Shown here piece after piece: positions 5,524-64,000 of a stretch of 64,000 nucleotides of DNA. The notes beneath the pieces are model-generated. The model saw nothing but the letters and a program-made list of their open reading frames with translations. It was not told the origin of the DNA and searched no databases. The first letter of the stretch is position 1. Every line of letters begins with the position of its first letter. Origin of the DNA: an uncultured Bifidobacterium sp. (GTDB lineage Bacteria; Verrucomicrobiota; Verrucomicrobiia; Limisphaerales; JADLHS01); NCBI GenBank assembly GCA_964539515.1, contig CAZIJO010000002.1, positions 25,360 through 89,359 of the forward strand, written 5' to 3'. The position numbers and the translations under genes are program-made.

Positions 5524-5534
5524 CAGAAGAAGCA

Positions 5535-5598
5535 GCCGCCGACGAAAGGAGGCGGAACGTGCGCCCGCGCGATTGGTCCGCCTCCTCACGTCGGCGGC
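5535..5598. terminator. long imperfect hairpin between convergent genes (candidate bidirectional terminator)
   Basis: GCCGCCGACG (5535-5544) plus GGAGGCGG (5548-5555) pair with CCGCCTCC (5578-5585) plus CGTCGGCGGC (5589-5598). The loop is 22 nt. There is no U-tract, so this is not a canonical intrinsic terminator. Confidence 0.45.
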
Positions 5599-7022: not shown

Positions 7023-7136
7023 GCCGCTTCGACTTCTCCGCCGTCACAAGGTTGACCATTGAGTAGTAGCCAGAACTGGAACTCCCTCGAAGCCGGGGGA
7101 ATGTTCGGGAGGATGCCTGCGCCGTATGCAGTCGTT

Positions 7137-7952: not shown

Positions 7953-7980
7953 AGTGGCTTGGAGAATCCAGAAAAACGGT

Positions 7981-51736: not shown

Positions 51737-54373
51737 ATGATCAAATGGACCGAATCGGCGAGGCGAACCTTGGAGGAATACTGTGCGCGCACCCGGACAG
51801 TGTTGGCGGGCAGCGGCGCCGATGCGGAGGAAGTCACTGACGACCTGCGACGCCACGTCGAGGAAGAGGTCCGCGCGGCGCGATTGAGCGTGGTGACGGA
51901 GGAGGACCTCCGCCGCATCCTGGTTCAGGTTGGCGAACCCGGAGCGCCGCTGGAAGGAACGGGACACCAGGCCGCAGCCAACCCGGAACCACCCGTTTCG
52001 CATACAAATGACAAAAAGCGCCCAGGCATCCTGCTGCTGGTTCTGGGAGTCCTCCTGCCGCTCGGCACCCTGATTTTCGAACTGGTCACGGGCATTTCCG
52101 CCGGGGTGCTCTTTGATCCGCTTCCGAGCTGGTTCAGTGTCCTGGCCGTCGCCCTGGTGCCGGGCGCGAATCTTTGGATCTGGTGGGCCGGCCGGGCGCG
52201 GGATCCCCGTCCGGCCCGGTTGCTGGGTTGGTTGAACGGTGCGGCGTTGGGCGTCTGCATCTATTACTCCCTGATGTATTTGTTGTTCGTGCCCTTCGCG
52301 GCAATTGGCGTCCTCTATTTCGGGTTGGGTTTGATTCCGTTGACCCCGCATCTGGCGCTCATCGCCACGCCGGGCTTGCGCGCGGCGTACGTCCGGCAAA
52401 TTGGGAAGGACCGGTTGCCCGGGATGTGGGGTGTGCTGGTTGGGTTCGGCTTTCTGGTGTTGCTTCAATTGCCCGCCGCGCTGACCTACTACGGTCTCGC
52501 GCAGGCCGCCGCGGAGGAGCGCGACGCCCGGAGCCACGGCGTCCGCGTGCTCCGGACCTTCGGCGACGAAGAGCTGGTGTTGCGCGCCTGCTACGGGTTG
52601 CTGCGCCGGGAAATGGAAATGGATTGGGTTCGCCTCATCGCCAGTGGAAACAAAACGGTTTCGGCCGAGGCAGCCCGGGAAATCTACTACCGCGCTTACG
52701 GCCGCCCCTTCAACTCGCTGCCACCCCCGTCGCTCTATACCCGGGCGGGACGCTGGACGGCGCTCGACGAGGAATTCACCTGGGACGATGCGCTGGGCGG
52801 TGAAGCCGTGGCCGGGCGGGTCAAAGGGCTTTCGCTCGCCAGCTCGCGCATGGACGCCACGGCCGAACCGGACGCGGCGCTGGTTTATTGCGAGTGGACG
52901 ATGGAGTTCAAGAATGTCTCCCGCCAGCAACGGGAGGCACGAATGCAGATCGCCCTGCCGCCCGGCGCGGTGGTATCCCGGCTGACGTTATGGATCAACG
53001 GCGAGGAGCGGGAAGCGGCCTTCGGCGGCCGTTCGCAGGTGCGCAAGGCCTACCAGGAAGTCGCCGTCGCGCAACGCCGCGACCCGGTGCTGGTGACGAC
53101 CTGCGGGCCGGATCGGGTGTTGATGCAGTGCTTTCCGGTGCCACCCAATGGCGGGATCATGAAAGTCCGTTTGGGAATGACCTCACCGCTGGTTTTGGAA
53201 TCCCTGGAGCAGGGCAGTTTTGTCTGGCCCCGATTCCTCGAGCGGAACTTCGGCCTGGCCGCAGACTTGAAGCACGCATTGTGGATGGAATCCGCGAGTC
53301 CGTTAGACAGCGGGAAAGGCGCAGCCGCCGCCAAGAACGGGAAGCCTCCGTATACCCTGCACGAGTCAACATCGGAGACCGACCTGGCAGCAGCTCCGAA
53401 AGTTGTCAAAATCCATCGGCCGTCTGAAATTGCAACGGTTTGGGCGCCGACCGACGAGGCGGGTTCGATCATACGACAATCCATTCAGAGCGTGGCACCG
53501 GTGAATCCACCCCGCGTCGTGGTGGTCCTTGACAGTTCCGAAGGGATGCAATCCTCCGCCCGGGAGCTGGGCGCATCGCTGGCCGGCATTTCGGAAACAA
53601 CCGAGATCGCCTTGATCATTGCCAATGACGATCCGAGGCGGTTGGAAGCCAAGCCGCAGAAGGCCACACCGGCGGTTGTTCGTGCGCTTCAGCAAAGGCT
53701 CGACAAGGTTCGCTTCGTCGGCGGACAGGACAATCTGCCGGCGCTCGAGGCAGCGTGGGACTTGGCGGCCCAGGTTGAGAACGGGGTGGTGGTTTGGGTT
53801 CATCAGCCGCAACCGGTGCTGCTTTCCAACGAGAGCGGCTTGCGCCAGCGCATGGAGCGGGCCACCAAGCCCGTGCGCCTGTTTGAACTCCAAACCCGCA
53901 ACGGCCCCGATCGCATTATCGAAAAACTGGATGGTTTGCCGGCCGTCGAACATGCCGTGCGCCGGGATTCGCTGCGTTCGGACTTCGAGAAACTCCTGGC
54001 GCGACTGACCGGCAAGCAGGGCAGCTTTCAATTCGTGCGAGAAAAAACCACGGGACCAGCCACGGGCCCCCGCGGCGGCAAGCACATCGAACGGTTATGG
54101 GCGCGGGATGAGTCGTTGCGCCTCGCGGCCAATCGCCAGCGGGACGCGGCCGTGAAACTTGCGGCGGCGAACCAACTGGTCACACCCCTGACGGGCGCCG
54201 TCGTACTGGAAACCAAAGAACAGTATGACCGTCACGGGCTAAAGCCGGCGGATGCCATGACGGTGCCGGCCGTGCCGGAACCCACCGGCATGAGCCTGGT
54301 GGGAGTAGCTTTCGTGGTGTACTTCCTGGCCCGCCATCATCGCCGGCCCTCCCGACCGCATCACAACAGGTGA
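51737..54373 (+). CDS. polytopic membrane protein with PadR-associated N-terminal helical module, VIT and vWA-like domains and PEP-CTERM-like tail
   Basis: It starts 1 nt after the PadR stop. N-terminus MIKWTESARRTLEEYCARTR..DDLRRHVEEEV (DUF1700-like). Several TM helices fall in aa ~95-260. VIT-like LVYCEWTMEFKNVSRQQREARMQIALPPGAVVSRLTLWINGEEREAAF. The C-terminus is VPAVPEPTGMSLVGVAFVVYFLARHHRR. Confidence 0.8.
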   Translation: MIKWTESARRTLEEYCARTRTVLAGSGADAEEVTDDLRRHVEEEVRAARLSVVTEEDLRRILVQVGEPGAPLEGTGHQAAANPEPPVSHTNDKKRPGILLLVLGVLLPLGTLIFELVTGISAGVLFDPLPSWFSVLAVALVPGANLWIWWAGRARDPRPARLLGWLNGAALGVCIYYSLMYLLFVPFAAIGVLYFGLGLIPLTPHLALIATPGLRAAYVRQIGKDRLPGMWGVLVGFGFLVLLQLPAALTYYGLAQAAAEERDARSHGVRVLRTFGDEELVLRACYGLLRREMEMDWVRLIASGNKTVSAEAAREIYYRAYGRPFNSLPPPSLYTRAGRWTALDEEFTWDDALGGEAVAGRVKGLSLASSRMDATAEPDAALVYCEWTMEFKNVSRQQREARMQIALPPGAVVSRLTLWINGEEREAAFGGRSQVRKAYQEVAVAQRRDPVLVTTCGPDRVLMQCFPVPPNGGIMKVRLGMTSPLVLESLEQGSFVWPRFLERNFGLAADLKHALWMESASPLDSGKGAAAAKNGKPPYTLHESTSETDLAAAPKVVKIHRPSEIATVWAPTDEAGSIIRQSIQSVAPVNPPRVVVVLDSSEGMQSSARELGASLAGISETTEIALIIANDDPRRLEAKPQKATPAVVRALQQRLDKVRFVGGQDNLPALEAAWDLAAQVENGVVVWVHQPQPVLLSNESGLRQRMERATKPVRLFELQTRNGPDRIIEKLDGLPAVEHAVRRDSLRSDFEKLLARLTGKQGSFQFVREKTTGPATGPRGGKHIERLWARDESLRLAANRQRDAAVKLAAANQLVTPLTGAVVLETKEQYDRHGLKPADAMTVPAVPEPTGMSLVGVAFVVYFLARHHRRPSRPHHNR

Positions 54374-55575
54374 CAGAACATCGCGTCGCGAAGCTTGGGC
54401 TCGAACCACGTGCTCTTGGGCGGCATGATGCCCCCCGCGTCGGCAATGGTCATCAAGTCCTCGATACTCGTTGGGTACATTGAGAAGGCACAGGCGTACT
54501 CACCGCTGTCCACCAACTTCTCCAACTCCGCCGTCCCGCGAATGCCACCGACGAAATTGATGCGCTTGCTGGTGCGAGGGTCGTTGATGCCGAAGATCGG
54601 ATCGAGCACCAGCTTCTGGAGCAAGGTGACGTCGAGCTTTTCGATCGGATCGCTGGTCGTGGTAAACTCCGGCCGGAAGGTCAGCGTGTGCCAACGCCCG
54701 TTGAGAAACAAACCGAGTTCGTGTTTGCGCGCGGGCCGCGCCGCGCCGTTGGTTTGAAGGGTGAAGATGATTTCGAGTTTCGGCCGCAATTGCTCGGGGG
54801 AAAGTCCATTGAGATCCTTCAGCACGCGGTTGTATGGCAGGATCTGCATCTGGTTGTGCGGGAAAATCACGGCGAGGAATGATCCGCTGTGACCCGCCCC
54901 CGCGCGGGATTGGTAAACCCGCGCCGCCGCAGCGCTGCGGTGATGGCCGACGGCGATATAGAGGGCCGGGATCCCGGCGAATTGCTCCGCGATAAACTGT
55001 ATGCCGGCGGCATAGCTTACGGTCCACGACGAATGGCGAACGCCGTCCTTGCCGGTAAAATCCACCTCCGGCTTCGCGGCCGTACGCCGAGCCACGAATT
55101 CGTCCAAGGCCTTGGTGGCGCGATAGGTGAGAAACACCGGACCGGTTTGGGAATCGAGCGCTTCAATATGGCGCACGCGGTCGTCTTCCTTGTCCGGGCG
55201 CGTGAGTTCGTGCTTCTTGATGATGCCGCTGAGGTATTCCGCACAACTCGCAGCGGCAACCAGCCCCACCTGACTGTGCGGCCCCATGACCTGGCGGTAC
55301 AGGTAATAGGCCGGTTGCGCATCCTGCCGGAGTGCACCCTGGTTGATCAGTCGCCGAAAGTTTTCCCGCCCCTGCGCATAAACCTCCGGTGCGTAAATGT
55401 CCGTTGTTGGTGGCAGGTCAATCTCCGGTTTGCTCACGTGGAGGAAGCTCAGTGGGTTGCCGGCGGCCAGCAGCCGGGCTTCGTCCGACGACATCACGTC
55501 GTACGGCAGTTCGCAAATTTGGGCAGCGAGTTCGGGTTGGGGCCGCAGCGCGGCGAATGGTTTCAAGGTAGCCAT
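54361..55575 (-). CDS. DUF1015-family protein
   Basis: MATLKPFAALRPQPELAAQICELPYDVMSSDEAR.. from ATG 55575. Its 3' end overlaps the convergent gene by 13 nt. Confidence 0.8.
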   Translation of the reverse strand: MATLKPFAALRPQPELAAQICELPYDVMSSDEARLLAAGNPLSFLHVSKPEIDLPPTTDIYAPEVYAQGRENFRRLINQGALRQDAQPAYYLYRQVMGPHSQVGLVAAASCAEYLSGIIKKHELTRPDKEDDRVRHIEALDSQTGPVFLTYRATKALDEFVARRTAAKPEVDFTGKDGVRHSSWTVSYAAGIQFIAEQFAGIPALYIAVGHHRSAAAARVYQSRAGAGHSGSFLAVIFPHNQMQILPYNRVLKDLNGLSPEQLRPKLEIIFTLQTNGAARPARKHELGLFLNGRWHTLTFRPEFTTTSDPIEKLDVTLLQKLVLDPIFGINDPRTSKRINFVGGIRGTAELEKLVDSGEYACAFSMYPTSIEDLMTIADAGGIMPPKSTWFEPKLRDAMFCHLL

Positions 55576-55752
55576 AAAACGAGGCGCGAGCATACGGATG
55601 CGTGCCCGGCAACGCACGAAGTTATTGCCGAATTAATAGCGGTCGCGACGGCCGGTCCCGGCAACGAAGTTCCCAGCCGGGCGCCGGCCCAAAAACAGTC
55701 GTTGATTCCCGTGGTCACCGGGGTAGTATCGCGTCTCAACGAGACCAAGACC

Positions 55753-56382
55753 ATGAGTACGCCCACTCCCAAAAGCGAAGTGAAACGGCTGAAGGTGCTT
55801 TGGCAATACGACGTGCTCGACTCCGTGCCCGAGGAGGTCTTCGACGACCTGACGGACCTTGCTGCGCATATCTGCGAAGCACCCATCGCCCTCATTTCCC
55901 TCGTGGACGAGGACCGCCAGTGGTTTAAATCCAAGGTCGGCGTTTCCCTCAGCGAAACCGCGCGGGATATTTCCTTTTGTGCCCATGCCATCATGAACGA
56001 GGGCATCATGATCATCTCGGATGCAAGGAAGGATGCGCGCTTCCAGAAAAACCCGTTGGTGACCGGCCCCCAAAGAATTCGCTTTTACGCGGGAGCTCCC
56101 CTCATCACGCCCGACGGCCACGCGCTTGGCACGCTCTGTGTGCTCGATAAAAAGCCGCGTCAGCTCCGCCCGGAGCAAAAGCAGGCACTGATCGTCCTCG
56201 CGCACCACGTGGTCTCCCAACTCGAACTGCGCCGCCACGCCCGCGAACTGGTCGCGGCCCGCGTGGATGTCTCGAAACAACGCGCCGAACTCGTGCGTGC
56301 CAACGCCGAGATCGCCCGCCTACGCAAACGGCTCGCCCGCTGCCAGCGCCGGCCCGTTGCTGCCAGGCGGGATCGCCGCTGA
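55753..56382 (+). CDS. GAF-domain protein with C-terminal coiled coil
   Basis: LKVLWQYDVLDSVPEEVFDDLTDLAAHICEAPIALISLVDEDRQWFKSKVG..FCAHAI..PLITPDGHALGTLCVLD. The ATG at 55753 is the real start; the upstream part of track ORF 54889-56382 is antisense to DUF1015. Confidence 0.8.
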   Translation: MSTPTPKSEVKRLKVLWQYDVLDSVPEEVFDDLTDLAAHICEAPIALISLVDEDRQWFKSKVGVSLSETARDISFCAHAIMNEGIMIISDARKDARFQKNPLVTGPQRIRFYAGAPLITPDGHALGTLCVLDKKPRQLRPEQKQALIVLAHHVVSQLELRRHARELVAARVDVSKQRAELVRANAEIARLRKRLARCQRRPVAARRDRR

Positions 56383-57842: not shown

Positions 57843-58511
57843 CTATGGGAAGGAAATCTGCGGTTTAACGCGGACACTGAAGCCGTGCGACTCCAGTTTT
57901 GAAACCAGTGGCTGGACTTCGGATTCAGGCAGGTCGGTTTGAACGATGATCTCCCGCTTCTTGTCCTTGTAATATTTTTCTGCCAGCGCGTCCACGTCAT
58001 CAAGGGCAATCTCCGCGTTCTGACGCTTCAAGATGACGGTTCTGCCTTCCTTATTACGGATAACGCTGAACAGGCAGTCAAAGCGTTGCGCAAACATGCC
58101 CGTTTGCTGCTGAACCGCCCGTGATGCCCGGGGATTTACGTCGCGCAAATAGAAATTAAACTCAGGATTACTTCCCCAACAGGAATACTCGAAGGCGAAC
58201 AGTAACGTCGCGACTCCACTGTAAGCAACCGACATTCGTGGCGTGAGCACCGTCCCATCAAAAGACCCCCAATTCGTGGTTCGATACGGCCCGAGATATG
58301 CCGGAGGTGGATGGTTGCCATGCATGTAGTATGCAGACCCACCTGCATAATGGGTGAAATCATGTGAGTCGCACCCACAATGGTTACGCGCTGAAGGTGG
58401 TAGCAGAATCCAGTTACCATCCACCGGCGCCGGAAAGAACGCCAAAACAAGCAATGCTGTGAACGACCATACGCCAAAACGAATCGAGCGTTTCCAGCTC
58501 TTCCGGATCAT
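57843..58511 (-). CDS. membrane-anchored protein of unknown function, last gene of the T7SS-like operon
   Basis: ATGA overlap with the ATPase stop (58508-58511). N-terminal anchor SIRFGVWSFTALLVLAFFPAP. Cys/His/Tyr/Trp-rich middle. Visibly AT-richer than its neighbours. Confidence 0.7.
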   Translation of the reverse strand: MIRKSWKRSIRFGVWSFTALLVLAFFPAPVDGNWILLPPSARNHCGCDSHDFTHYAGGSAYYMHGNHPPPAYLGPYRTTNWGSFDGTVLTPRMSVAYSGVATLLFAFEYSCWGSNPEFNFYLRDVNPRASRAVQQQTGMFAQRFDCLFSVIRNKEGRTVILKRQNAEIALDDVDALAEKYYKDKKREIIVQTDLPESEVQPLVSKLESHGFSVRVKPQISFP

Positions 58512-61500
58512 ACGGTTCTTGGCAGCAAAGACAGCCTAACCTCTTCCAACCACGCGTTGTCCGGCAACGCATACGGCCGGAACGTTTCCAGCCAGCCTTC
58601 CTGGCCATTGAACAGAATCGCGCGATGCAGGCCCAGGTTGTTGGCCTGGGGTGAATCAATCAGGCTCGCCGAGTCGTTCGCGCTCATCTGGAACACGACG
58701 CGCATTTCAAATTCACTCAGCGCCTTGCGGCTGAGGAAACGCATCACGTTGTTGTAGGTGTCGCAATTGGCGATGACATGAAACCCAAGACTCGCGCCTT
58801 CGCAGATCAGCTTGTTGAGTTGCAGTCCGGGGTTTCCGCCGGCACCGGCGTCCAGCGAGAAACTCATCTCCTCGTCAAAGCGCAGCTTCTTGTTTCGTTG
58901 CAGGCCGTGGATGAGCAGATACGTTTCCGGCGTAACCGCGCCCGGATCGTCGGCCCGTTGCTGTTGTTCCACGGCCAGCGCGGCCATCACTTCGTCCACT
59001 TCCCCGGCGCGAACCAGTTTGACTTCATGCGGCACGGTGCGCACCGCTTGCTCCAGAAATCTGGCCTCGGCGGAATCCGGCGCGCTGCAATCGAAAACGA
59101 GGAATCGAGCGCCGGCTTTCGGATGCTGCGCTGCCAGGGCAACCAGCGCCACGGCCAGCATGCCCGAGGCCGCTTCCTCCCGTTGGCCGACAATCAGCAG
59201 ATGATTGCCGCTCTGCCGGCGGAAAATCGCCTCGGTTGGCCCTTTGATCGAATTCGGGGCCCCCAGCCAGACGCGCGGCGGCGTTCCGGCCGGGACGGAT
59301 TTCGCGTCGAGCGCCGCGCGCAGCAAGGCGTTGTCGCGCACACTGGCGGGGGCGTTGCCTTCGAAAACAATTGGCTCGCGCGAGGTAGCCGCCGACGTGA
59401 GAAGGCGGTCGGGCTTGCCGGCCATTTCCGCCTCGTGACCGCGGTGGCTACGAGCCGACACTTTTTTCAACCATTCATCCCGCACTTCGTCCGGCAGCCA
59501 CACGACTTGAAACGGACTGTTCCCTTGCAGCGCGCCGCCTTCGTCATTGTAAATCGCCTCCCCCGGACGTGAGAGCAGGCGCGGCGCGGGGTTGTCCTCG
59601 TTCATGATGAGGTAGGCGTCCGCTTCGTTGCACTGGAGCGCAATGCGCACCACCATCTGGCCGATGGTGGCGCGGGCCAGCGAATAAGCACCGCCAAGGG
59701 TTTGGGAGCCAAGCAGCACGTGAATCCCGAACGCACGCCCCTGCCGCACGATGCGGTCGAGCAGCAACGCGGCACCCTGCGAAACGCGGTCGTCCTCCAC
59801 GAACAATTCCTGAAACTCATCAATCAACAGCAGCGTGCGCGGAATCGGCTCGGTCCCGCCGGCGCGTTTGTATCCGGCGATGTCCTGGGCTCCCAGTTTG
59901 CGAAACAGATCGCCGCGCCGCTTGAGTTCGTCGTCCACGCGCTGCAATACGCTCAGGCCAAATTCTCGGTCGCTCTCGATGGCGATGACGCGTGCGTGCG
60001 GCAATTTGTGCGTGGCGTAGCATTTGAATTCGACGCCCTTCTTGAAGTCCACGAGATAGAATTCCACCTGGTCCGGACTGCACCAGAGCGCGAGGTTTGT
60101 GATGAGCACGTGGAAGAGGGTGGACTTGCCGGAGCCGGTCTTGCCCGCGATCAACCCGTGCTGCCGCGTGCCCTGGCCGAGCAGGAGGTATTGCAGCTTC
60201 GTCGCGCCGGTCCGGCCCACCGCCACGCGCAATTCGGTGGTCGTTTCCCGGGTCCACAGCTCACGGTCCTCCGGGGCGACTTCGGCAAACGGCATTTCCA
60301 CGCGATACGAATCGGTGCTGTCCTTGCCAATCTGCTGGAGCAACTGCGTGGCAAGTGCCGCGTCTGGCGGCGCATCGAGCACGAGCTGGACCCCGTTCCA
60401 GGTGCTGCTCCCCGGCCCCGCGGCTTTCCCCCCTCGCTCCGCGCCCGTCGCCGGGAGGCCGGGAGGGGCGGCTGGCCGCGCTTGGGGCGGTTCTGCCGCC
60501 GGACAACTGCCAATCGCAAAGCCGTCGCCTTTGGGCACGATGCAGATGGAGTTCTTGCGGAGTTCCTCCGGCACGAACTCCGTGGGGGCGGCTTTCCGTT
60601 GATCCCAGTGAATGAGCAAATGCACGCCACAACGCGGACCGCTGGCCGCGATGTTGTGGAGGCGTTTCACCGCCACTTCGCTGAAATTGGCCGGAAAGTC
60701 GGCGATGACCAGGAACTGGTATTTCTCCGCCATGCGCCCCGCCTGGGCATTGTATTCCGCCAGCGTCTCGTACTCGTTGCGGAGATACATCTGGGTGACT
60801 TTCTCGATGTGTTCATTGAGATCGGCGAGCCGCTGCTCAAACTGGGCGGTCTGCGTCCAGATGCGGCTGTTGATGAGGCGCTCCTCGAAATCCGCCAGGT
60901 GCATGATGCCGGCGAAGTTCTGGCCCAAACCAACGGGATCGAAGATCGTAAAACTCAGCCGGCCCGGCGGGGAACTGGTGAGCAGTCGCAAAACCAGATT
61001 GTTCAATGCGCCGATGATTTGTTGCTGACCGGATTGCTTCGTCTCAAACAACAGGGAAGCCTGGCGGGACACCGACAAAAGCAGCGGCACACTGAAATGC
61101 GTCGCCCCCGGCAGCGCAAATCCCCGGCCTTGGAGCGAAACTTCACATAGTTTCTCAACGTCCACCGTCAGCCCAGCATACCGGGCGGCAGCGGAAAATT
61201 CCTCCGGTAGCGAGAATGCCTGCCAAAGTTCCGCGCGCCATGGTGGGAAAACGCTGTCCGCCGAGGTGCCGGCCGCCTGCAGGGCCGACCAGGTTGGCAA
61301 CACAGCACGCTGCCAGTCCACCTCGATGGCCTGACGGCCGACCTCCCGGGTGGCCTGCAACCGGGCGAGGCCGTCGTTGAAACCGGTTTCGAGTTTCTCC
61401 AAGGCGGCCAACGTCATTTCGTGCCCCCGCCCCATCCGTTCGGCGTGCTGCTCATCAATGGTTTTGAGCCATAATCGGCGGCGCTCCTCATTCGCGAGAA

Positions 61501-62659
61501 CGAGTTTGCGCGCCTGGTCGGTGAGGCGGTCGGTCCAGCCGCTCCGCAAGATCCGGGCTTCCGCCCGCACTTGCTTCCAGTGGTCGTTGAGTTTTTGGGT
61601 GGTGCTGGCATGGACGGCCTGGAGGCGCGCAGTTTCCGCCTGAAAACTCGTGTCCGCCTTGTGGGCGCAAACCTCGGCCAGCTGCCGGGCCGCGTGCAGG
61701 GCAACCGCGGCAGCTTTTGCGTGGGGCGCCGCGAGGCGGCGGCCAAGAAGGTAAAGGATCCCAACGGCGGCCACGCCCGCCCCCACCAGGAGCCAGACGT
61801 TCACGGGCACGGCCGGAAAATCAAACCGGCGGAGTTCCGGCACGAAGACAAACGGCACAAGCAGAATCAACGGAAGACAGAGCCAGAGCCGGAAGAACCG
61901 GAAAAAGAGCGCCAACCCAAAAGCATGGCAAAGCGTCAGGGCCTGCCCGGCCTGGTCGCGATACGCGCGGAGCTGTTCCAAGAGCTGCGCCTCGGGCCGG
62001 GACGAATCGAAAGCGGGAGCGTCCGGCGGGCTGAGGATCAGTCGCACGTGCGCGCCGAAGCCGGCCAGGGTGGCGCGGGCGCGGGCGCCCAGGCGGTCAA
62101 GCGCCGCAACCTCGTCCGCAAGCTGATTGGTAAACGCCGCGTGGTGGGCCTGATTCTTCTGCGTCTCCGCCTCGTAAACCCGCTTCGCCTCCAGGATTCC
62201 GTCCTGGTTTTCCAGCGTGTGTTTGGCCTCCTCCCGTTCGATCTCGGCCACGCGTTGCTTCCGGGCATTCTCTGAAGCGCGCGCGATGCGCGTTTTGCGG
62301 GCGGCAAAGGAAGCTTCGACCCGAGCCCGATGGCCGGCCACGTCCGCCTCCGCCGCCGCTGATTCCGCCGCCCACCGAGCCTGTTCACTGGCCCGGGCCT
62401 GTTCGAACTGGGCCCGAAGTTTGTGGGACCGCGCGTTGAAATCACGCTCCAACTCGTCCGCCCGCCGGACGGCGTCGCCCACGCCTTGACGCAGGCGTTC
62501 CAGCAGGGCGAGCGTCTCGACCGTGCCCAGCAGCCTACTCGCAATCGGCGCGGATCTTGTTGAGGATTCGTTCAAGGGATTCAATGTTTGTGACCGCCTG
62601 GTTGACTGCGGAAAAAAGCTCGTCGAGAAAACGCTGCTCGAATTCCCGGCTCTTGGCAT
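58508..62659 (-). CDS. membrane-anchored FtsK/SpoIIIE-family ATPase with three P-loop-like domains (EssC/EccC-like)
   Basis: Walker A AGKTGSGKST (60119-60148). Walker B LLLIDEFQ (59810-59833). Two TM helices at about 61745-61945, preceded by an Ala/Arg/Glu-rich coiled coil. The flanking P-loop-like domains have degenerate Walker motifs. The start is uncertain: ATG 62659 overlaps the upstream gene by 125 nt, and in-frame GTG 62482 or a start near 62530 is possible. Confidence 0.85.
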   Translation of the reverse strand: MPRAGNSSSVFSTSFFPQSTRRSQTLNPLNESSTRSAPIASRLLGTVETLALLERLRQGVGDAVRRADELERDFNARSHKLRAQFEQARASEQARWAAESAAAEADVAGHRARVEASFAARKTRIARASENARKQRVAEIEREEAKHTLENQDGILEAKRVYEAETQKNQAHHAAFTNQLADEVAALDRLGARARATLAGFGAHVRLILSPPDAPAFDSSRPEAQLLEQLRAYRDQAGQALTLCHAFGLALFFRFFRLWLCLPLILLVPFVFVPELRRFDFPAVPVNVWLLVGAGVAAVGILYLLGRRLAAPHAKAAAVALHAARQLAEVCAHKADTSFQAETARLQAVHASTTQKLNDHWKQVRAEARILRSGWTDRLTDQARKLVLANEERRRLWLKTIDEQHAERMGRGHEMTLAALEKLETGFNDGLARLQATREVGRQAIEVDWQRAVLPTWSALQAAGTSADSVFPPWRAELWQAFSLPEEFSAAARYAGLTVDVEKLCEVSLQGRGFALPGATHFSVPLLLSVSRQASLLFETKQSGQQQIIGALNNLVLRLLTSSPPGRLSFTIFDPVGLGQNFAGIMHLADFEERLINSRIWTQTAQFEQRLADLNEHIEKVTQMYLRNEYETLAEYNAQAGRMAEKYQFLVIADFPANFSEVAVKRLHNIAASGPRCGVHLLIHWDQRKAAPTEFVPEELRKNSICIVPKGDGFAIGSCPAAEPPQARPAAPPGLPATGAERGGKAAGPGSSTWNGVQLVLDAPPDAALATQLLQQIGKDSTDSYRVEMPFAEVAPEDRELWTRETTTELRVAVGRTGATKLQYLLLGQGTRQHGLIAGKTGSGKSTLFHVLITNLALWCSPDQVEFYLVDFKKGVEFKCYATHKLPHARVIAIESDREFGLSVLQRVDDELKRRGDLFRKLGAQDIAGYKRAGGTEPIPRTLLLIDEFQELFVEDDRVSQGAALLLDRIVRQGRAFGIHVLLGSQTLGGAYSLARATIGQMVVRIALQCNEADAYLIMNEDNPAPRLLSRPGEAIYNDEGGALQGNSPFQVVWLPDEVRDEWLKKVSARSHRGHEAEMAGKPDRLLTSAATSREPIVFEGNAPASVRDNALLRAALDAKSVPAGTPPRVWLGAPNSIKGPTEAIFRRQSGNHLLIVGQREEAASGMLAVALVALAAQHPKAGARFLVFDCSAPDSAEARFLEQAVRTVPHEVKLVRAGEVDEVMAALAVEQQQRADDPGAVTPETYLLIHGLQRNKKLRFDEEMSFSLDAGAGGNPGLQLNKLICEGASLGFHVIANCDTYNNVMRFLSRKALSEFEMRVVFQMSANDSASLIDSPQANNLGLHRAILFNGQEGWLETFRPYALPDNAWLEEVRLSLLPRTV

Positions 62660-62741
62660 CGCTCCACGATTGTTTCGTGTTGGCCCATTCGGCGGCCAGT
62701 TCCTTCGTCAAACCCAGCAGGCGATTCTGACTGGCGCTCAT
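62535..62741 (-). CDS. small helical WXG100-like protein (68 aa, W-S-D turn)
   Basis: MSASQNRLLGLTKELAAEWANTKQSWSDAKSREFEQRFLDELFSAVNQAVTNIESLERILNKIRADCE. The ATG at 62741 overlaps the upstream stop (ATGA). Trp codon at 62664-62666. Confidence 0.7.
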   Translation of the reverse strand: MSASQNRLLGLTKELAAEWANTKQSWSDAKSREFEQRFLDELFSAVNQAVTNIESLERILNKIRADCE

Positions 62742-63298
62742 GACGATGCCCCCTCTTCCGGGGCCGCCGTTGGGGCGGGCGCGGGTTCGCCGGACGCCGG
62801 CGGCAGGTTGGCCGGTGGACGGGCCGGCGACAACTCGGCGTACTCGCTGAGGGTTTTGGTCATTGTGTTCAACCACGCCACGGCCTGGCCGAGATCGTGA
62901 CCCAGCGTGTGCCGGAGTTTCTCCACCTGGCGGCCCAGCGGTTCCACCTGCTGATCAAACTGCCGATGCCAGTGCCGGGTTGTTTTGAGTTTCTCCTCGG
63001 CCTGGTGAATCGCCCGGCGGGCCTTCTGCACGGCGGCCTGCTGGGCATACGAGGAGTCGCGCAAACCCGAAAGCTGGGCGCTAAACAGCTCCTGCTGGCG
63101 CTGCTCCAGTTCCCGGGTGAGACGGCGGATTTGATTTTGCCAGTGGGCGGGCCGCTCGGACTGCAACCACAGCCGGGTACGCGTCACGTCGTCGTTGACC
63201 TCGTCAAGCACCCGGCCGGCTTTGTCACGGTAAATGATAAGTTTCGCCCGAAAGTCTTCAATGACCTCGAGTGAAGTGACGCGCGCGCGGTCGGGCAT
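62738..63298 (-). CDS. coiled-coil protein with Pro/Ala-rich C-terminal tail (186 aa)
   Basis: The ATG at 63298 gives MPDRARVTSLEVIEDFRAKLIIYRDKAGRVLDEV... The upstream part of track ORF 62738-63454 runs through the repeat spacer. Heptad-like helical sequence, ending ARPPANLPPASGEPAPAPTAAPEEGASS. Confidence 0.7.
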   Translation of the reverse strand: MPDRARVTSLEVIEDFRAKLIIYRDKAGRVLDEVNDDVTRTRLWLQSERPAHWQNQIRRLTRELEQRQQELFSAQLSGLRDSSYAQQAAVQKARRAIHQAEEKLKTTRHWHRQFDQQVEPLGRQVEKLRHTLGHDLGQAVAWLNTMTKTLSEYAELSPARPPANLPPASGEPAPAPTAAPEEGASS

Positions 63299-63404
63299 AT
63301 CAAAAAACTCCAAACCCCAAAATCCAAACACCAAAGAAAGACCAAGATTCAAGTTCCCAAGCGGGCCAAACGGAGCGCCGCCCTTGAACCGCGCACGGCG
63401 CGCT

Positions 63405-63432
63405 GGTGTTTGGTGTTTGGTGTTTGGTGTTT
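63405..63432. repeat. four perfect tandem copies of GGTGTTT, inverted relative to the degenerate CCAAANN array at 63309-63336
   Basis: Read directly from the sequence. CCAAACACCAAA (63324-63335) is the exact reverse complement of TTTGGTGTTTGG within the array. Confidence 0.9.
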
Positions 63433-63450
63433 CGGCCCATGCGTGGGGAT

Positions 63451-63723
63451 TCAATGTTGATCCAGATATTCCTCAATGCGTTGGGCCTTGCGCAGCAGGA
63501 AGGGCGTGTGCTGGTTGGAACTTTCGATGAACTTTTTCAGCACCTTCATCGTGTCGCGAAATTCCTCCGAGAACTTGGCGTGTTCCTGATCCTGCCAGGT
63601 ATCCCCCAGCGCCGAAAACCGGGCCTGCAGGAGCGACATCCGGTTTTGCAATTCGACATTGAATCGCTTGAGTTCTTCCGCAAAGCGCCGGACTTCGCCG
63701 GGATCCATGACGGCCTGTGGCAT
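63451..63723 (-). CDS. small helical WXG100-like protein (90 aa, W-Q-D turn)
   Basis: MPQAVMDPGEVRRFAEELKRFNVELQNRMSLLQARFSALGDTWQDQEHAKFSEEFRDTMKVLKKFIESSNQHTPFLLRKAQRIEEYLDQH. GAGGAA lies 8 nt upstream of the ATG. W-Q-D at 63589-63597. Confidence 0.75.
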   Translation of the reverse strand: MPQAVMDPGEVRRFAEELKRFNVELQNRMSLLQARFSALGDTWQDQEHAKFSEEFRDTMKVLKKFIESSNQHTPFLLRKAQRIEEYLDQH

Positions 63724-63875
63724 GTACGTTCCTCGTGTTCAGGTTTTTTCTGAGGCAAAGCTAACAGAGGCGGCGCGCAGCTTCCAATCGGAATTCCGCC
63801 CAGGCGAATCGGTCCCGCGGCGCCCGAGCCAGCCGCTTCGAGGCGGCGCCAAGGGAATTCGGCGCCCGAACCGGA

Positions 63876-64000
63876 CTAGGCCGGGGAAGATTTGGCGGGC
63901 GGCAGGATTTCGACGACCTCCGACAGCGGGCGGCCCTGGAGATCGGAGATCAGGGCTTTGCGGCCATAAAGGACTGCCGGGGCGGTGAGTTCAAACTTCT
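63876..64000 (-). CDS. C-terminal end of an unidentified protein (gene runs off the right edge)
   Basis: Manual translation of the minus strand: ..KFELTAPAVLYGRKALISDLQGRPLSEVVEILPPAKSSPA, then TAG at 63876-63878. Confidence 0.45.
   Translation of the reverse strand, partial: KFELTAPAVLYGRKALISDLQGRPLSEVVEILPPAKSSPA

What the first reader, a model, noticed from the sequence alone, without database searches (positions are those of the whole stretch)
57843..63723. Minimal type-VII-secretion-like operon in a probable diderm PVC genome
Five co-directional minus-strand genes are tightly packed between 63723 and 57843.
- A 90-aa helical protein with a central ..LGDTWQDQEHAKFSEEF..
- After a structured 152-nt spacer, a 186-aa coiled-coil protein.
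- An ATGA-coupled 68-aa helical protein with ..KQSWSDAKSREFEQRF..
- A 1383-aa membrane protein with FtsK/SpoIIIE-type P-loop domains.
- An ATGA-coupled 222-aa membrane-anchored protein.

Small helical-hairpin proteins of about 100 aa with a central W-x-G turn, next to a membrane-bound multi-domain FtsK/SpoIIIE ATPase, are the defining core of ESX/Ess type VII secretion in Actinobacteria and Firmicutes. Three things differ here. The turn is W-x-D in both small proteins. I recognise none of the other canonical parts (EccB/D/E, MycP, EsaA, EssA, EssB, a YukD-like ubiquitin fold, FHA domains on the ATPase). The surrounding genome encodes Wza, OM beta-barrels, PEP-CTERM and DUF1559 pseudopilins, which implies an outer membrane that a T7SS-like machine would have to cross by an unknown route. 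The locus may continue beyond the right window edge.
Basis: partly seen in the sequence, partly recalled or inferred. Interest (0 to 1): 0.85.

Follow-up and report, generated by a model that had tools for sequence, protein, structure and literature searches.

The report
Stand-alone WXG100 and EssC-like ATPase cassette
This is a conserved four-gene set on a Verrucomicrobiota chromosome that pairs small ESAT-6-like helical proteins with a membrane-anchored secretion-type ATPase; it is a true relative of the Gram-positive type VII secretion core, but the Gram-negative version was already noted in the literature and its function has never been tested.

Summary
The five minus-strand ORFs, the motifs, the 152-nt spacer and both ATGA overlaps are as described.

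- **90-aa protein:** a WXG100 family member. It scores 32.7 bits on Pfam PF06013 against a cut-off of 27.3. Its closest solved relative is H. pylori HP0062, which also has W-x-D at the turn.
[quoted passage not shown] Sequence and predicted fold match EccC/EssC far better than FtsK or TcpA.
- **Conserved unit:** four genes, not five. WXG100, a ~180-aa helical hairpin, a ~70-aa WXG-like protein and the ATPase keep this order in 65 of 72 testable loci, mostly Verrucomicrobiota plus Planctomycetota. At least 583 loci turned up among species-representative genomes.
- **Flanks:** no flanking gene family is conserved. The 222-aa gene has no homolog in any locus.
- **Prior art:** Zhang 2012, Anantharaman 2012 and Bell 2024 describe this module, H. 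pylori HP0062/HP0066 is an example, and a 2023 review calls such systems functionally unconfirmed.

The most likely function is ATP-driven export of the small helical proteins across the inner membrane. This is inferred, not shown. I class it as a new member of a known but uncharacterised kind.

The parts
63724..63876 (-). 5' intergenic region upstream of the WXG100 gene (presumed promoter region)
   Evidence: The upstream ORF ends at about 63877. The consensus scan found no sigma-70-like site here, so a promoter is inferred from the gene layout only.
63451..63723 (-). WXG100-family protein, 90 aa, HP0062 type, W-Q-D at the hairpin turn
   Evidence: Pfam PF06013 scores 32.7 bits against a cut-off of 27.3. 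The best PDB matches are HP0062 entries 3FX7 and 2GTS, E = 6e-6, followed by EsxB and EsxA. It is exactly 90 aa in 70 loci, with median identity 73% where the ATPase is 49%. It has no hydrophobic segment.
63299..63450 (-). Intercistronic spacer with a long hairpin built of heptamer repeats (arms 63305-63333 and 63404-63432), followed by U6 just before the next start codon
   Evidence: MFE -63.8 kcal/mol, z = -2.7. It is the only such inverted repeat of this sequence in the window. Hairpins with different repeat units sit at the same position in 6 of 7 closest loci, z = -3.3 to -9.2. There is no Rfam match.
62738..63298 (-). 186-aa helical-hairpin ('coiled-coil') protein with a disordered Pro/Ala-rich C-terminal tail
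   Evidence: AlphaFold2 gives pLDDT 81.5, with helices 2-77 and 80-156 antiparallel and residues 160-186 disordered. There is no Pfam family and no significant fold match. The family has 469 clusters at 90% identity and 1998 representatives at E<=1e-3, nearly all 165-200 aa and stand-alone. It is present in 72 of 84 loci, always between the WXG100 gene and the small gene.
62535..62741 (-). 68-aa WXG100-like small protein (W-S-D turn, invariant C-terminal ..D-C-E)
   Evidence: ATGA overlap with the previous gene. NCBIfam WXG100_ESAT6 E = 0.0023. The family HMM matches proteobacterial WXG100 proteins with WxD..F in register, at 18.0 and 12.6 bits. The WXG90 HMM hits the ortholog in L064 at E = 0.004. 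The hhalign comparison with the WXG90 family is not significant, E = 0.06. It is present in 72-74 loci.
58508..62659 (-). EccC/EssC-like membrane ATPase (ORF 1383 aa; probable TTG start at 62575 or 62584, giving 1355-1358 aa)
   Evidence: Pfam FtsK_SpoIIIE 113 bits. NCBIfam EccCa 113.5, EccCb 88.7 and EssC 78.5 bits against FtsK 23.4. PDB sequence hits: EccC 100.9, EccC5 91.4 and YukB 69 bits against FtsK/TcpA about 34. The AF2 model of residues 470-1383 best matches the three-domain EccC 4NH0, E = 2e-30.
61925..62575 (-). ATPase N-terminal region (residues about 29-245): Ala/Arg/Glu/Leu-rich, poorly conserved, presumed cytoplasmic coiled coil
   Evidence: Composition A 21%, R 12%, L 10%, E 10%, with few Pro or Gly. 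No Pfam domain and no FHA. It matches the >200-residue N-terminal coiled coil described for this ATPase type. The structure of this part was not predicted here.
61739..61924 (-). Two transmembrane helices (residues 246-278 and 281-307) joined by a very short loop
   Evidence: Kyte-Doolittle peaks of 2.37 and 2.21. Equivalent hydrophobic pairs occur in the distant homologs P0032 (Gemmataceae) and P0033.
60365..61162 (-). First FtsK-like domain, degenerate (residues about 500-765; no Walker A; FLVIADFP in place of Walker B)
   Evidence: An alpha/beta domain in the AF2 model, included in the three-domain match to EccC. The hhalign comparison with the active domain is not significant, E = 0.05, although the Walker-B region aligns in register. 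It carries the family-specific motifs MHLAD[FY] and QMYLRNEY used in the genome scan.
59465..60292 (-). Second FtsK-like domain, the only one with catalytic motifs (Walker A GKTGSGKS at 60122-60145; Walker B LLLIDE at 59816-59833)
   Evidence: motif coordinates checked by translation. It is invariant in the alignment of distant homologs.
58511..59392 (-). Third FtsK-like domain, degenerate (residues about 1090-1383; GQREEAASG in place of Walker A, YLLIHGLQ in place of Walker B)
   Evidence: The hhalign comparison with the active domain gives probability 96.6%, E = 7e-10 over 219 columns. The model is confident here, pLDDT 80-93.
57843..58511 (-). 222-aa membrane-anchored ORF. It is NOT part of the conserved system (lineage-specific ORFan).
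   Evidence: No tblastn hit in 84 loci at E<=1e-3, and nothing credible at E<10. No family in Pfam, NCBIfam or PADLOC. GC3 is 0.58 against 0.70-0.81. The closest relative L002 has an 85-aa ORF and an ISL3 transposase at this spot.

Best explanation
The locus is a chromosomal, stand-alone member of the 'WXG100 plus three-domain EssC/EccC-like ATPase' cassettes found in Gram-negative bacteria. The H. pylori HP0062/HP0066 pair is of this type. The functional unit is four genes: WXG100 (90 aa), a helical-hairpin protein (186 aa), a WXG-like small protein (68 aa) and the ATPase.

Most likely mechanism, step by step:
1. The ATPase sits in the inner membrane through a two-helix hairpin. Its long N-terminal coiled coil and all three P-loop domains lie in the cytoplasm. 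The topology is inferred from the hydropathy profile and the ATPase domains.
2. It oligomerises like other FtsK-family motors. Only the middle domain hydrolyses ATP. The presence and absence of the motifs is shown; the rest is inferred.
3. The 90-aa protein folds as a helix-turn-helix and dimerises into a four-helix bundle, as the HP0062 crystal structure does. This is inferred from homology. It may pair with itself or with the 68-aa paralog.
4. These bundles, together with the 110-angstrom helical hairpin of the 186-aa protein, are recognised by a degenerate ATPase domain and moved across the inner membrane into the periplasm. This is inferred by analogy with EccC/EssC and with LXG-type cargo. 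It is supported by related plasmid cassettes in which the second gene is a helical domain fused to a WHH nuclease toxin, followed by a SUKH immunity gene.
5. In the window's clade, an intercistronic hairpin after the WXG100 gene probably raises WXG100 output relative to the downstream genes. This is inferred.

How, or whether, the outer membrane is crossed is unknown.
For: **Homology of the core parts**
- PF06013 scores above its cut-off.
- HP0062 is the best solved relative and shares the W-x-D turn.
- the ATPase matches EccC/EssC far better than FtsK or TcpA. All three domains align to EccC 4NH0 at E = 2e-30.

**ATPase architecture**
- two transmembrane helices, conserved in distant homologs, and a single Walker A and B.
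- the third domain is a degenerate copy of the active one, E = 7e-10.
- the model shows three alpha/beta domains.

**Unit and breadth**
- the four genes keep the same order in 65 of 72 loci with enough upstream DNA, in Verrucomicrobiota and Planctomycetota.
- at least 583 loci in species-representative genomes.
- no other flanking family is conserved, and there are no relaxase or conjugation genes.

**Cargo logic in relatives**
- a Helicobacter sp. plasmid carries WXG(89 aa), a 340-aa protein with a helical N-terminus and WHH/colicin-DNase toxin domains, a SMI1/KNR4 immunity gene, a 77-aa gene and an FtsK ATPase.
- a Caballeronia plasmid carries WXG100, 436-aa, 113-aa and 76-aa genes and an ATPase.

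**Literature describing the same module as a T7SS-like secretion unit**
- Zhang 2012, PMC3482391; PMC4978471; Bell 2024, PMC11090510.
Against: - Secretion has not been shown for any Gram-negative WXG100/FtsK pair (PMC10765036).
- None of the accessory membrane components of T7SSa or T7SSb is present in the cassette or its conserved flanks. A channel would have to be made from 2 transmembrane helices per ATPase subunit alone.
- The loop between the two transmembrane helices is only a few residues long. No partner has a signal peptide or transmembrane segment, so nothing spans the periplasm or outer membrane.
- The ATPase scores lie far below the NCBIfam equivalog cut-offs for EccCa, EccCb and EssC.
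- The WXG90 C-terminus (..RIEEYLDQH) has no Y-x-x-x-D/E signal.
- The 186-aa protein has no toxin domain, and its HMM does not match the toxin N-termini of the plasmid cassettes.
- WXG90 is more conserved than the motor, 73% against 49%. That fits a constrained machine part or regulator better than a diversifying effector.
- Related cassettes without transmembrane helices sit inside CoCoNuT/TerY-P defence islands.
Confidence: 0.55

Rival explanations
1. The cassette is the translocation machine plus its core WXG components, as EsxA is for T7SSb. The biologically relevant cargo is encoded elsewhere in the genome. The three small proteins act as structural, targeting or activating factors and are not the end products.
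For: WXG90 is the most conserved part, at median 73% identity and a fixed length of 90 aa. The 186-aa protein lacks any effector domain. Four loci have the ATPase separated from the partner genes, so the components can work in trans. In T7SS, binding of an Esx substrate controls EccC activity (established knowledge of EccC, Rosenberg et al. 2015, from memory).
Against: No candidate cargo with WXG, LXG or similar N-terminal domains was looked for elsewhere, because only this window is available. No flanking gene family is conserved. In the plasmid relatives the cargo-like toxin is encoded inside the cassette.
Confidence: 0.2
2. It is not a secretion system. It is an intracellular, membrane-associated conflict or defence or stress module, in which the WXG-like hairpins and the coiled-coil protein regulate or scaffold an ATPase that acts on nucleic acid or on other cytoplasmic targets. 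The relatives embedded in CoCoNuT/TerY-P islands are of this kind.
For: Close architectural relatives sit between VWA genes next to CARF, PP2C, Ser/Thr kinase and McrBC-like genes. PADLOC models of SspH and mad8 match the ATPase domain at 81 and 63 bits. The 186-aa hairpin weakly resembles generic scaffolds such as SMC arms, PspA/Vipp1 and YscO.
Against: In Verrucomicrobiota and Planctomycetota the cassette stands alone among unrelated housekeeping genes, with no nuclease, kinase or VWA partner. The PVC ATPases have conserved transmembrane helices, which the defence-island versions lack. The PADLOC hits cover only the generic P-loop domain. Strong purifying selection and presence in hundreds of species are unlike typical patchy defence genes. 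The authors of the CoCoNuT paper themselves favour secretion for the WXG100 proteins.
Confidence: 0.2
3. The ATPase is a DNA translocase of the FtsK/SpoIIIE, TraB or TcpA kind, working in chromosome segregation or conjugative transfer. The small genes are unrelated neighbours.
For: The only Pfam domain is FtsK_SpoIIIE. Single-domain fold matches to FtsK and TcpA exist at E about 1e-10. Source annotations read 'DNA segregation ATPase FtsK/SpoIIIE'.
Against: There is no FtsK gamma or winged-helix DNA-binding domain. The FtsK equivalog scores 23 bits against 113 for EccCa. EccC and EssC outrank FtsK and TcpA by 20 orders of magnitude in the fold search. No relaxase or conjugation genes occur in any of 84 loci. 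The small genes are co-inherited in fixed order with overlapping start and stop codons.
Confidence: 0.03

Closest known systems
Helicobacter pylori HP0062 (PDB 3FX7, 2GTS) with the FtsK-like HP0066: the 'WXG100 secretion system' or minimal T7SS set of H. pylori
   Same: HP0062 is the best solved relative of the 90-aa protein (E = 6e-6, aligned over residues 3-90). It has the same W-x-D turn (WRD against WQD), the same ..KFSE.. after the turn and a similar ..EE(D)YL[DE].H C-terminus. It is a small helical hairpin that forms an antiparallel homodimeric four-helix bundle, has no signal peptide, and clusters with an FtsK/SpoIIIE gene. The host is Gram-negative.
   Different: The phylum is different (Campylobacterota). 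I could not read the H. pylori chromosomal locus here, so the presence of the 186-aa and 68-aa equivalents and of transmembrane helices in HP0066 is untested. The pan-genome paper lists a DnaK homolog in the H. pylori cluster, which is not part of the PVC cassette. The function of HP0062/HP0066 is also unknown.
WXG100/EssC-like module of Type III-A CoCoNuT and TerY-P islands (Bell et al. 2024; Anantharaman et al. 2012), e.g. Caballeronia sp. SBC2 plasmid pSBC2-5
   Same: The gene grammar is the same: WXG100, a coiled-coil protein, a small second WXG-like protein without the canonical motif, then an EssC-like ATPase. That ATPase has a coiled-coil N-terminus of more than 200 residues and three ATPase domains, of which only the central one is active. 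The Caballeronia WXG100 matches the WXG90 HMM at E = 7e-26 and begins MAQAIGDPEE.. like the PVC proteins. The literature states that the module also occurs as a stand-alone unit in other genomes.
   Different: Those ATPases are reported to lack transmembrane helices, whereas the PVC ones have two. Their coiled-coil protein carries a restriction-endonuclease-like domain and is followed by an extra small gene. The PVC 186-aa protein has only a Pro/Ala tail. Those modules are embedded in VWA/CARF/kinase/McrBC defence islands. The PVC cassette is isolated among housekeeping genes.
Helicobacter sp. NHP19-012 plasmid cassette: WXG, WHH-nuclease toxin, SUKH immunity, small protein, FtsK ATPase
   Same: The order and sizes match: WXG (89 aa, matches the WXG90 HMM at E = 7e-17), a second gene with a long helical N-terminus, a small 77-aa gene, then the ATPase.
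   Different: The second gene ends in WHH/colicin-DNase toxin domains and is followed by a SMI1/KNR4 immunity gene. The ATPase is shorter, at 823 aa. The cassette is plasmid-borne. Neither the cc186 HMM nor the sm68 HMM matches its second or fourth genes.
T7SSb (Ess/Yuk) of Bacillota: EssC/YukB, EsxA, LXG toxins with small Lap/WXG-like partners
   Same: A membrane FtsK-type ATPase with two transmembrane helices and tandem P-loop domains lies next to WXG100 genes. A long helical-hairpin protein plus two small helical-hairpin proteins parallels the LXG-Lap1-Lap2 pre-export complex (papers listed; the parallel is my inference). EssC structures 5FV0 and 4LYA match the model at E about 1e-21.
   Different: There are no FHA domains, and no EsaA, EssA, EssB/YukC or YukD/EsaB. 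Only one active ATPase domain is present, in the middle position. The turn is W-x-D, not W-x-G. There is no LXG Pfam match. EssC NCBIfam scores 78.5 bits against a cut-off of 778. The host is diderm.
T7SSa (ESX) of Actinomycetota: EccC with EsxA/EsxB
   Same: The best sequence and fold matches of the ATPase are EccC of Thermomonospora curvata (4NH0) and EccC5. The host envelope also has a second membrane whose crossing is unexplained.
   Different: There is no EccB, EccD, EccE or MycP, no PE/PPE and no EspG. There is no YxxxD/E signal. EccC has its essential catalytic site in D1 and nucleotide-binding D2 and D3 (established knowledge, from memory). Here only the middle domain has motifs. EccCa scores 113.5 bits against a cut-off of 509.

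Membership tests
WXG100 superfamily (Pfam PF06013) | Score at or above the curated Pfam gathering threshold | tested here: met
   The 90-aa protein scores 32.7 bits against 27.3, covering profile positions 4-83 of 86. All 120 listed homologs carry PF06013.
WXG100 superfamily (Pfam PF06013) | A helix-turn-helix protein of about 100 aa without a signal peptide | tested here: met
   It is 90 aa with no hydrophobic segment. It is homologous over its full length to the HP0062 crystal structure, a helical hairpin.
WXG100 superfamily (Pfam PF06013) | A literal W-x-G motif at the turn | tested here: not met
   The turn is W-Q-D (consensus tWqDQE) in 70 loci. HP0062 shows the same substitution, WRD. 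This is a subfamily trait and does not exclude membership.
WXG100 superfamily (Pfam PF06013) | Gene adjacent to an FtsK/SpoIIIE-type ATPase gene | tested here: met
   This holds in the window and in 70 of 84 loci.
WXG100 superfamily (Pfam PF06013), for the 68-aa protein | Detectable profile similarity to WXG100 | tested here: inconclusive
   NCBIfam TIGR03930 gives E = 0.0023, below cut-off. Pfam WXG100 is hit by 1 of 28 family members, E = 0.005. The hhalign comparison with the WXG90 family gives E = 0.06. The sm68 HMM matches two proteobacterial WXG100 proteins at 18.0 and 12.6 bits with WxD..F in register. Sub-threshold PDB hits are enriched in WXG100 entries.
NCBIfam TIGR03930 'WXG100 family type VII secretion target' | Score at or above the curated cut-off (44.85 bits) | tested here: not met
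   The score is 24.4 bits. Even so, NCBI names orthologs 'WXG100 family type VII secretion target'.
Type VII secretion systems (T7SSa ESX / T7SSb Ess) | Membrane-bound EccC/EssC-type ATPase with tandem FtsK-like domains | tested here: met
   It has two transmembrane helices and three tandem FtsK-like domains that align to EccC 4NH0 at E = 2e-30. EccC, EssC and YukB are the best sequence matches.
Type VII secretion systems (T7SSa ESX / T7SSb Ess) | ATPase reaches the equivalog thresholds for EccCa, EccCb or EssC | tested here: not met
   Scores are 113.5 against 509, 88.7 against 347 and 78.5 against 778 bits.
Type VII secretion systems (T7SSa ESX / T7SSb Ess) | Phylum-specific accessory membrane components (EccB/D/E and MycP, or EsaA, EssA, EssB and YukD) and FHA or DUF domains on the ATPase | tested here: not met
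   No such family was found in the five proteins. No flanking family is conserved in 84 loci. The ATPase has no FHA domain, whereas the EssC-like hits P0038-P0042 do.
Type VII secretion systems (T7SSa ESX / T7SSb Ess) | C-terminal Y-x-x-x-D/E (or F-x-x-x-D) export signal on a substrate | tested here: not met
   The WXG90 consensus ends ..LLRKAQRIEeYL.Qr, with nothing at Y+4 within the protein. The sm68 consensus shows no such motif.
Type VII secretion systems (T7SSa ESX / T7SSb Ess) | ATPase-dependent secretion of the WXG100 protein | not testable with these tools
   This needs experiment. The field states that it is unconfirmed for Gram-negative pairs.
Stand-alone Gram-negative WXG100 / three-domain EssC-like ATPase cassette (Zhang 2012 footnote; Anantharaman 2012; Bell 2024; HP0062/HP0066) | Solo WXG-domain protein next to a YueA/EssC-like ATPase in a Gram-negative lineage, with Verrucomicrobia and Planctomycetes explicitly listed | tested here: met
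.
Stand-alone Gram-negative WXG100 / three-domain EssC-like ATPase cassette (Zhang 2012 footnote; Anantharaman 2012; Bell 2024; HP0062/HP0066) | [quoted passage not shown] | tested here: met
   A single Walker A at residue 839 and a single Walker B at 943, both in the middle domain. The third domain is homologous but degenerate, E = 7e-10. The first domain has a P-loop-like fold in the model and is included in the EccC match, but it is not significant by sequence alone.
Stand-alone Gram-negative WXG100 / three-domain EssC-like ATPase cassette (Zhang 2012 footnote; Anantharaman 2012; Bell 2024; HP0062/HP0066) | Long (>200 aa) coiled coil at the ATPase N-terminus | tested here: inconclusive
   About 217 residues precede the transmembrane helices. 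They are Ala/Arg/Glu/Leu-rich with few Pro or Gly and have no Pfam domain. No structure or coiled-coil prediction was run on this part.
Stand-alone Gram-negative WXG100 / three-domain EssC-like ATPase cassette (Zhang 2012 footnote; Anantharaman 2012; Bell 2024; HP0062/HP0066) | A second small WXG-like protein and a coiled-coil protein encoded between the WXG100 gene and the ATPase gene | tested here: met
   cc186 and sm68 are present in this order in 65 of 72 testable loci. The same layout is seen in the Caballeronia and Helicobacter plasmids.
FtsK/SpoIIIE DNA translocases and conjugative TraB/TcpA | DNA-recognition domain (FtsK gamma or winged helix), a single motor domain, and linkage to division or conjugation genes | tested here: not met
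   There is no gamma domain. FtsK NCBIfam scores 23 bits. No relaxase or transfer genes occur in 84 loci.
Known anti-phage defence systems (PADLOC) | Match of the cassette proteins to a defined defence system model set | tested here: not met
   Only the generic P-loop region of the ATPase matches SspH, mad8 and HerA models. The small proteins have no credible hits.

The most novel reading that the evidence does not exclude
The four-gene cassette is a complete, self-sufficient protein translocase. It would be the simplest T7SS-like machine known. A hexamer of a single two-transmembrane-helix, one-active-site ATPase would export a pre-assembled bundle of WXG90, the 68-aa WXG-like protein and the 186-aa hairpin into the periplasm of diderm Verrucomicrobiota and Planctomycetota. 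There the strongly conserved WXG90 would have a housekeeping envelope role. This chromosomal, vertically inherited form would represent the ancestral state from which the elaborate Gram-positive T7SSa/b and the toxin-carrying or defence-island versions were built.
Probability: 0.25. Interest if true: 0.75.

Novelty: new member of a known kind. Interest (0 to 1): 0.45.

Why it matters
T7SS reviews still describe the system as a feature of Actinomycetota and Bacillota. They mention only 'a limited number' of unconfirmed Gram-negative WXG100/FtsK pairs.

This locus shows that the Gram-negative version is not rare. Species-representative genomes hold at least 583 loci, and there are thousands of WXG100 protein clusters. 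It has a fixed four-gene grammar and a WXG100 protein conserved at about 73% identity across orders of Verrucomicrobiota.

If it does export proteins, three things follow:
- It would be the most reduced T7SS-like machine, useful for working out what the ATPase alone can do.
- It would widen the known secretion repertoire of diderm bacteria.
- It would bear on the origin of T7SS.

Cultured carriers exist (Limisphaera ngatamarikiensis, Verrucomicrobium sp. BvORR106), so the question can be tested directly. As a discovery it is not new. The contribution here is the definition of the unit, its breadth, and the exclusion of the fifth gene.

Tried and rejected
- **Fifth gene as part of the system.** Rejected. 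It has no homolog in 84 loci and an atypical GC3.
- **Locus continuing past the right edge.** Rejected. The upstream ORF is shared only with the closest clade, and in L002 it is followed by a HemN-like radical SAM gene.
- **A known fold for the 186-aa protein.** Foldseek against the PDB gave only generic long hairpins (iSH2, HP0958, SMC arms, YscO, PspA/Vipp1, AhlC) at E >= 0.03. None is usable. Weak Pfam YscO and ApoLp-III hits are below threshold.
- **Homology of cc186 to the toxin N-termini, or of sm68 to the 76/77-aa genes, of the plasmid cassettes.** No HMM hits.
- **Profile-profile proof that sm68 is WXG100.** Not significant, E = 0.06.
- **First ATPase domain as an FtsK domain by sequence.** Not significant, E = 0.02-0.05. 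This rests on the model and fold match instead.
- **Consensus RNA structure of the spacer.** MAFFT and RNAalifold failed because the repeat units differ between loci. Each spacer was folded on its own instead.
- **Rfam search of the locus.** Nothing found.
- **Sigma-70 promoter or terminator scan.** Uninformative.
- **Source contig look-up by exact protein.** Not on record.
- **Viral contigs.** Only 4 distant ATPase relatives, so there is no evidence that the PVC cassette is phage-borne.
- **Papers not held.** Sutcliffe 2011 and Anantharaman 2012 could not be read. Their content is cited only through papers that quote them.
- **Loci without partner genes.** I did not resolve why four loci lack the partner genes.

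Full report
**Observation.** The region holds five co-directional minus-strand ORFs exactly as described.
- A 90-aa ORF (63451-63723).
- A 152-nt spacer.
- A 186-aa ORF (62738-63298).
- A 68-aa ORF (62535-62741), whose ATG overlaps the previous stop as ATGA.
- A 1383-aa ORF (58508-62659).
- A 222-aa ORF (57843-58511), again with an ATGA overlap.

The quoted peptide motifs are present. An identical 186-aa protein is in the NCBI set (P0163). Homologs of the ATPase begin at the position of codon 29 (MNExS). In the closest relative the ATPase start overlaps the 68-aa gene by 41 nt. The true start in the window is therefore probably a TTG at 62575, or at 62584 as in the NCBI model of 1358 aa, and not the ATG at 62659.

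The window is ordinary chromosome. It carries DnaK, ArgRS, SdhA, a Wzz-type tyrosine kinase and a BBP2_2 beta-barrel porin. LptD lies on the contig of the closest relative, so a diderm host is well supported.

**The 90-aa protein.** It passes the curated Pfam threshold for WXG100, at 32.7 bits against 27.3.
- Its closest solved relative is H. pylori HP0062 (3FX7, 2GTS; E = 6e-6 over residues 3-90), followed by EsxB and EsxA structures.
- HP0062 has W-R-D at the turn and ..KFSE.. after it, as here. W-x-D is therefore a trait of this subfamily and not an oddity of this locus.
- HP0062 is an antiparallel homodimeric four-helix bundle. Its authors had already noted the ESAT-6-like features and the neighbouring FtsK/SpoIIIE gene.

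**The 68-aa protein.** It shares the W-x-D-x5-F turn. The statistics are weak but point one way.
- NCBIfam WXG100_ESAT6 gives E = 0.0023.
- The WXG90 HMM hits one ortholog at E = 0.004.
- The 68-aa family HMM aligns to two proteobacterial WXG100 proteins with the turn in register, at 18.0 and 12.6 bits.
- The profile-profile comparison is not significant, E = 0.06.

I treat it as a truncated WXG100 derivative, not proven.

**The 186-aa protein.** It is predicted with good confidence (pLDDT 81.5) as one long antiparallel helical hairpin, helices 2-77 and 80-156. A disordered Pro/Ala tail follows. It has no Pfam family and no significant fold match.

**The ATPase.**
- It has two adjacent hydrophobic helices (residues 246-278 and 281-307). 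These are conserved in homologs of 38-42% identity.
- About 217 Ala/Arg/Glu/Leu-rich residues precede them.
- It has exactly one Walker A (GKTGSGKS, 839) and one Walker B (LLLIDE, 943).
- The C-terminal domain is a degenerate copy of the active one (hhalign probability 96.6%, E = 7e-10).
- The domain before the active one is not significant by sequence (E = 0.05), but it is an alpha/beta domain in the AlphaFold2 model.
- That model (residues 470-1383, pLDDT 70.7) best matches the three-ATPase cytoplasmic part of Thermomonospora EccC (4NH0, E = 2e-30). EccC D2-D3 and EssC follow at about 1e-21. FtsK and TcpA reach only about 1e-10 and cover one domain.
- Sequence profiles agree. NCBIfam gives EccCa 113.5, EccCb 88.7 and EssC 78.5 bits against FtsK 23.4, all below the equivalog cut-offs. 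PDB sequence hits give EccC 100.9 bits against FtsK and TcpA at about 34.
- There is no FHA domain and no FtsK gamma domain.

**Conservation.**
- Homologs at 65-80% identity come from Verrucomicrobiota MAGs. One at 38% comes from a Gemmataceae MAG (Planctomycetota), and one at 42% from an unnamed metagenome contig.
- In all three contexts read first, the same four genes occur in the same order, with unrelated housekeeping flanks.
The best 80 are almost all Verrucomicrobiota of several orders, including the cultured Verrucomicrobium sp. BvORR106.
- Of 72 loci with more than 1.5 kb upstream of the ATPase, 65 have all three partner genes in order by tblastn. Three are partial and four have none.
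- All-against-all clustering of ORFs from the loci found no other family shared by more than about 10 loci. Nothing resembles a relaxase, a conjugation gene or an outer-membrane component.
- The 222-aa protein has no homolog in any locus. Its GC3 is 0.58 against 0.70-0.81 for its neighbours. The nearest relative has an 85-aa ORF and an ISL3 transposase in its place. It is not part of the system.

Unexpectedly, WXG90 is the most conserved component. It is always 90 aa, and its median identity is 73% where the ATPase is 49%, the hairpin protein 40% and the 68-aa protein 46%. The WXG90 family has 3474 clusters at 90% identity. The hairpin-protein family has 1998 representatives at E <= 1e-3, nearly all stand-alone and 165-200 aa.

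**Relatives outside the PVC group.**
- A Helicobacter sp. plasmid carries a WXG gene (89 aa), a 340-aa protein with a helical N-terminus and WHH/colicin-DNase toxin domains, a SMI1/KNR4 immunity protein, a 77-aa protein and an FtsK ATPase.
- A Caballeronia plasmid carries WXG100, 436-aa, 113-aa and 76-aa genes and an ATPase between VWA genes. CARF, PP2C and kinase genes lie next to them.
- Their WXG proteins match the WXG90 HMM at 7e-17 and 7e-26.
- The slot occupied here by the 186-aa hairpin protein is thus taken elsewhere by a helical domain fused to a polymorphic toxin with its immunity gene. That is the logic of exported T7SS cargo.
- The 186-aa HMM does not match those toxins. The parallel is therefore positional and architectural only.

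**Prior knowledge.**
- Zhang et al. [quoted passage not shown] The authors call these 'mobile versions of T7SS'.
- Uchiyama et al. 2016 call HP0062 and HP0066 a minimal set of a type VII secretion system.
- Bell et al. 2024 describe the same module in CoCoNuT islands. It has three ATPase domains with only the central one active, an N-terminal coiled coil of more than 200 residues, two WXG100 proteins of which one lacks the motif, and a coiled-coil-nuclease fusion. They cite Anantharaman et al. [quoted passage not shown] - NCBI already names orthologs 'WXG100 family type VII secretion target'.

**Interpretation.** It is secure that the locus is a homolog of the T7SS core. It fits the previously described Gram-negative stand-alone cassette on every feature I could test. 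The N-terminal coiled coil was judged from composition only. One difference stands out: the PVC ATPases have two transmembrane helices.

The function is not secure. I favour ATP-driven export of the small helical proteins across the inner membrane, with confidence about 0.55. Four things support this:
- the EccC/EssC kinship;
- the membrane anchoring;
- the tight co-inheritance of the four genes;
- the toxin/immunity versions of the cassette.

Against it stand several points:
- no accessory membrane, periplasmic or outer-membrane part is present;
- the known C-terminal export motif is missing;
- WXG90 shows regulator-like conservation;
- transmembrane-less relatives sit inside defence islands;
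- no experiment exists for any Gram-negative pair.

The rivals are as follows:
- a machine whose real cargo lies elsewhere in the genome (0.2);
- an intracellular conflict or stress module (0.2);
- a DNA translocase (0.03, effectively excluded).

**Verdict.** The unit is four genes, not five. The T7SS kinship is real, but it is already in the literature and unproven as a secretion system. I class it as a new member of a known, uncharacterised kind, of moderate interest.

Noticed in passing
window 63299-63450 (arms 63305-63333 and 63404-63432); L002 9130-9277; L006 1588-1698; L007 5258-5379; L009 5158-5305; L010 5138-5287; L012 5211-5328: The spacer between the WXG100 gene and the next gene is a long hairpin whose arms are runs of a short repeat: (CACCAAA)n pairing with (TTTGGTG)n, then U6. 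Six of the seven closest loci have a hairpin at the same position (z = -3.3 to -9.2), but each uses a different repeat unit (CCUCGAA, CAUCCAA, CAUUCAA, CACCAAG and others). Position and structure are conserved, and sequence is not. The hairpin is unique in the window and has no Rfam match. More distant clades have a spacer of about 10 nt instead. It may stabilise or attenuate the mRNA and so favour WXG100 output.
   Followed up: partly
window 62535-62543 (C-terminus of the 68-aa protein); alignment A4: The 68-aa family ends in ..D-C-E. The Cys is invariant in 28 of 28 diverse members. The other three proteins' relevant parts have no Cys. This is unexplained. A disulfide after export is one speculation.
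   Followed up: no
window 57843-58511: The 222-aa membrane-anchored ORF is ATGA-coupled to the ATPase stop. It has no homolog in 84 related loci, no family match and low GC3 (0.58). L002 has an 85-aa ORF and an ISL3 transposase at this position, so it is a variable spot downstream of the cassette.
   Followed up: yes
L030, L048, L054, L076 (ATPase at about 6001-9900 in each): Four Verrucomicrobiota loci have a full-length ATPase of this family (47-48% identity), but none of the three partner genes lies within 6 kb upstream. These may be orphan or second copies, or the partners may be encoded elsewhere.
   Followed up: partly
L085 (IMG/VR UViG_3300029489_000263), ATPase 5395-8799: A low-GC viral contig encodes a distant relative (26% identity). 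It has the same degenerate-active-degenerate layout and a coiled-coil N-terminus, but no obvious transmembrane helices. Its neighbours are a HerA/VirB4-like ATPase (871 aa), an acidic helical 164-aa protein and a 661-aa coiled-coil protein with a C-terminal enzyme-like domain. This may be a phage-borne variant of the module.
   Followed up: no
window 63877-64000 and L002 8155-8697: The ORF that runs off the right edge is the C-terminus of a protein of about 180 aa with no Pfam family. It is conserved upstream of the cassette only in the closest clade (L002, L005-L007, L009, L010, L012). In L002 a HemN-like radical SAM gene precedes it. This is local synteny, not part of the cassette.
   Followed up: yes
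L007, L009, L035, L080 (record titles): Several contigs carrying typical Verrucomicrobiota-type cassettes are titled 'uncultured Bifidobacterium / Bifidobacteriaceae'. Others are titled Limnocylindrales, Acidoferrum, Sulfopaludibacter or Bacteroidetes. These are probably wrong MAG labels or mis-binned contigs. Phylum counts drawn from titles should be treated with care.
   Followed up: no
window 40326-41558 and 41819-43102: Two adjacent paralogous proteins of about 410-427 aa have an N-terminal ECF-type sigma-70 region 2 plus region 4, followed by about 230 residues with no Pfam match.
   Followed up: no
window 54889-56382 (+) versus 54361-55617 (-): The long plus-strand ORF (497 aa) overlaps the DUF1015 gene on the other strand. 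Only its C-terminal part looks like the 163-aa GAF-domain gene seen in the syntenic L002, so the real gene is probably much shorter than the ORF.
   Followed up: no
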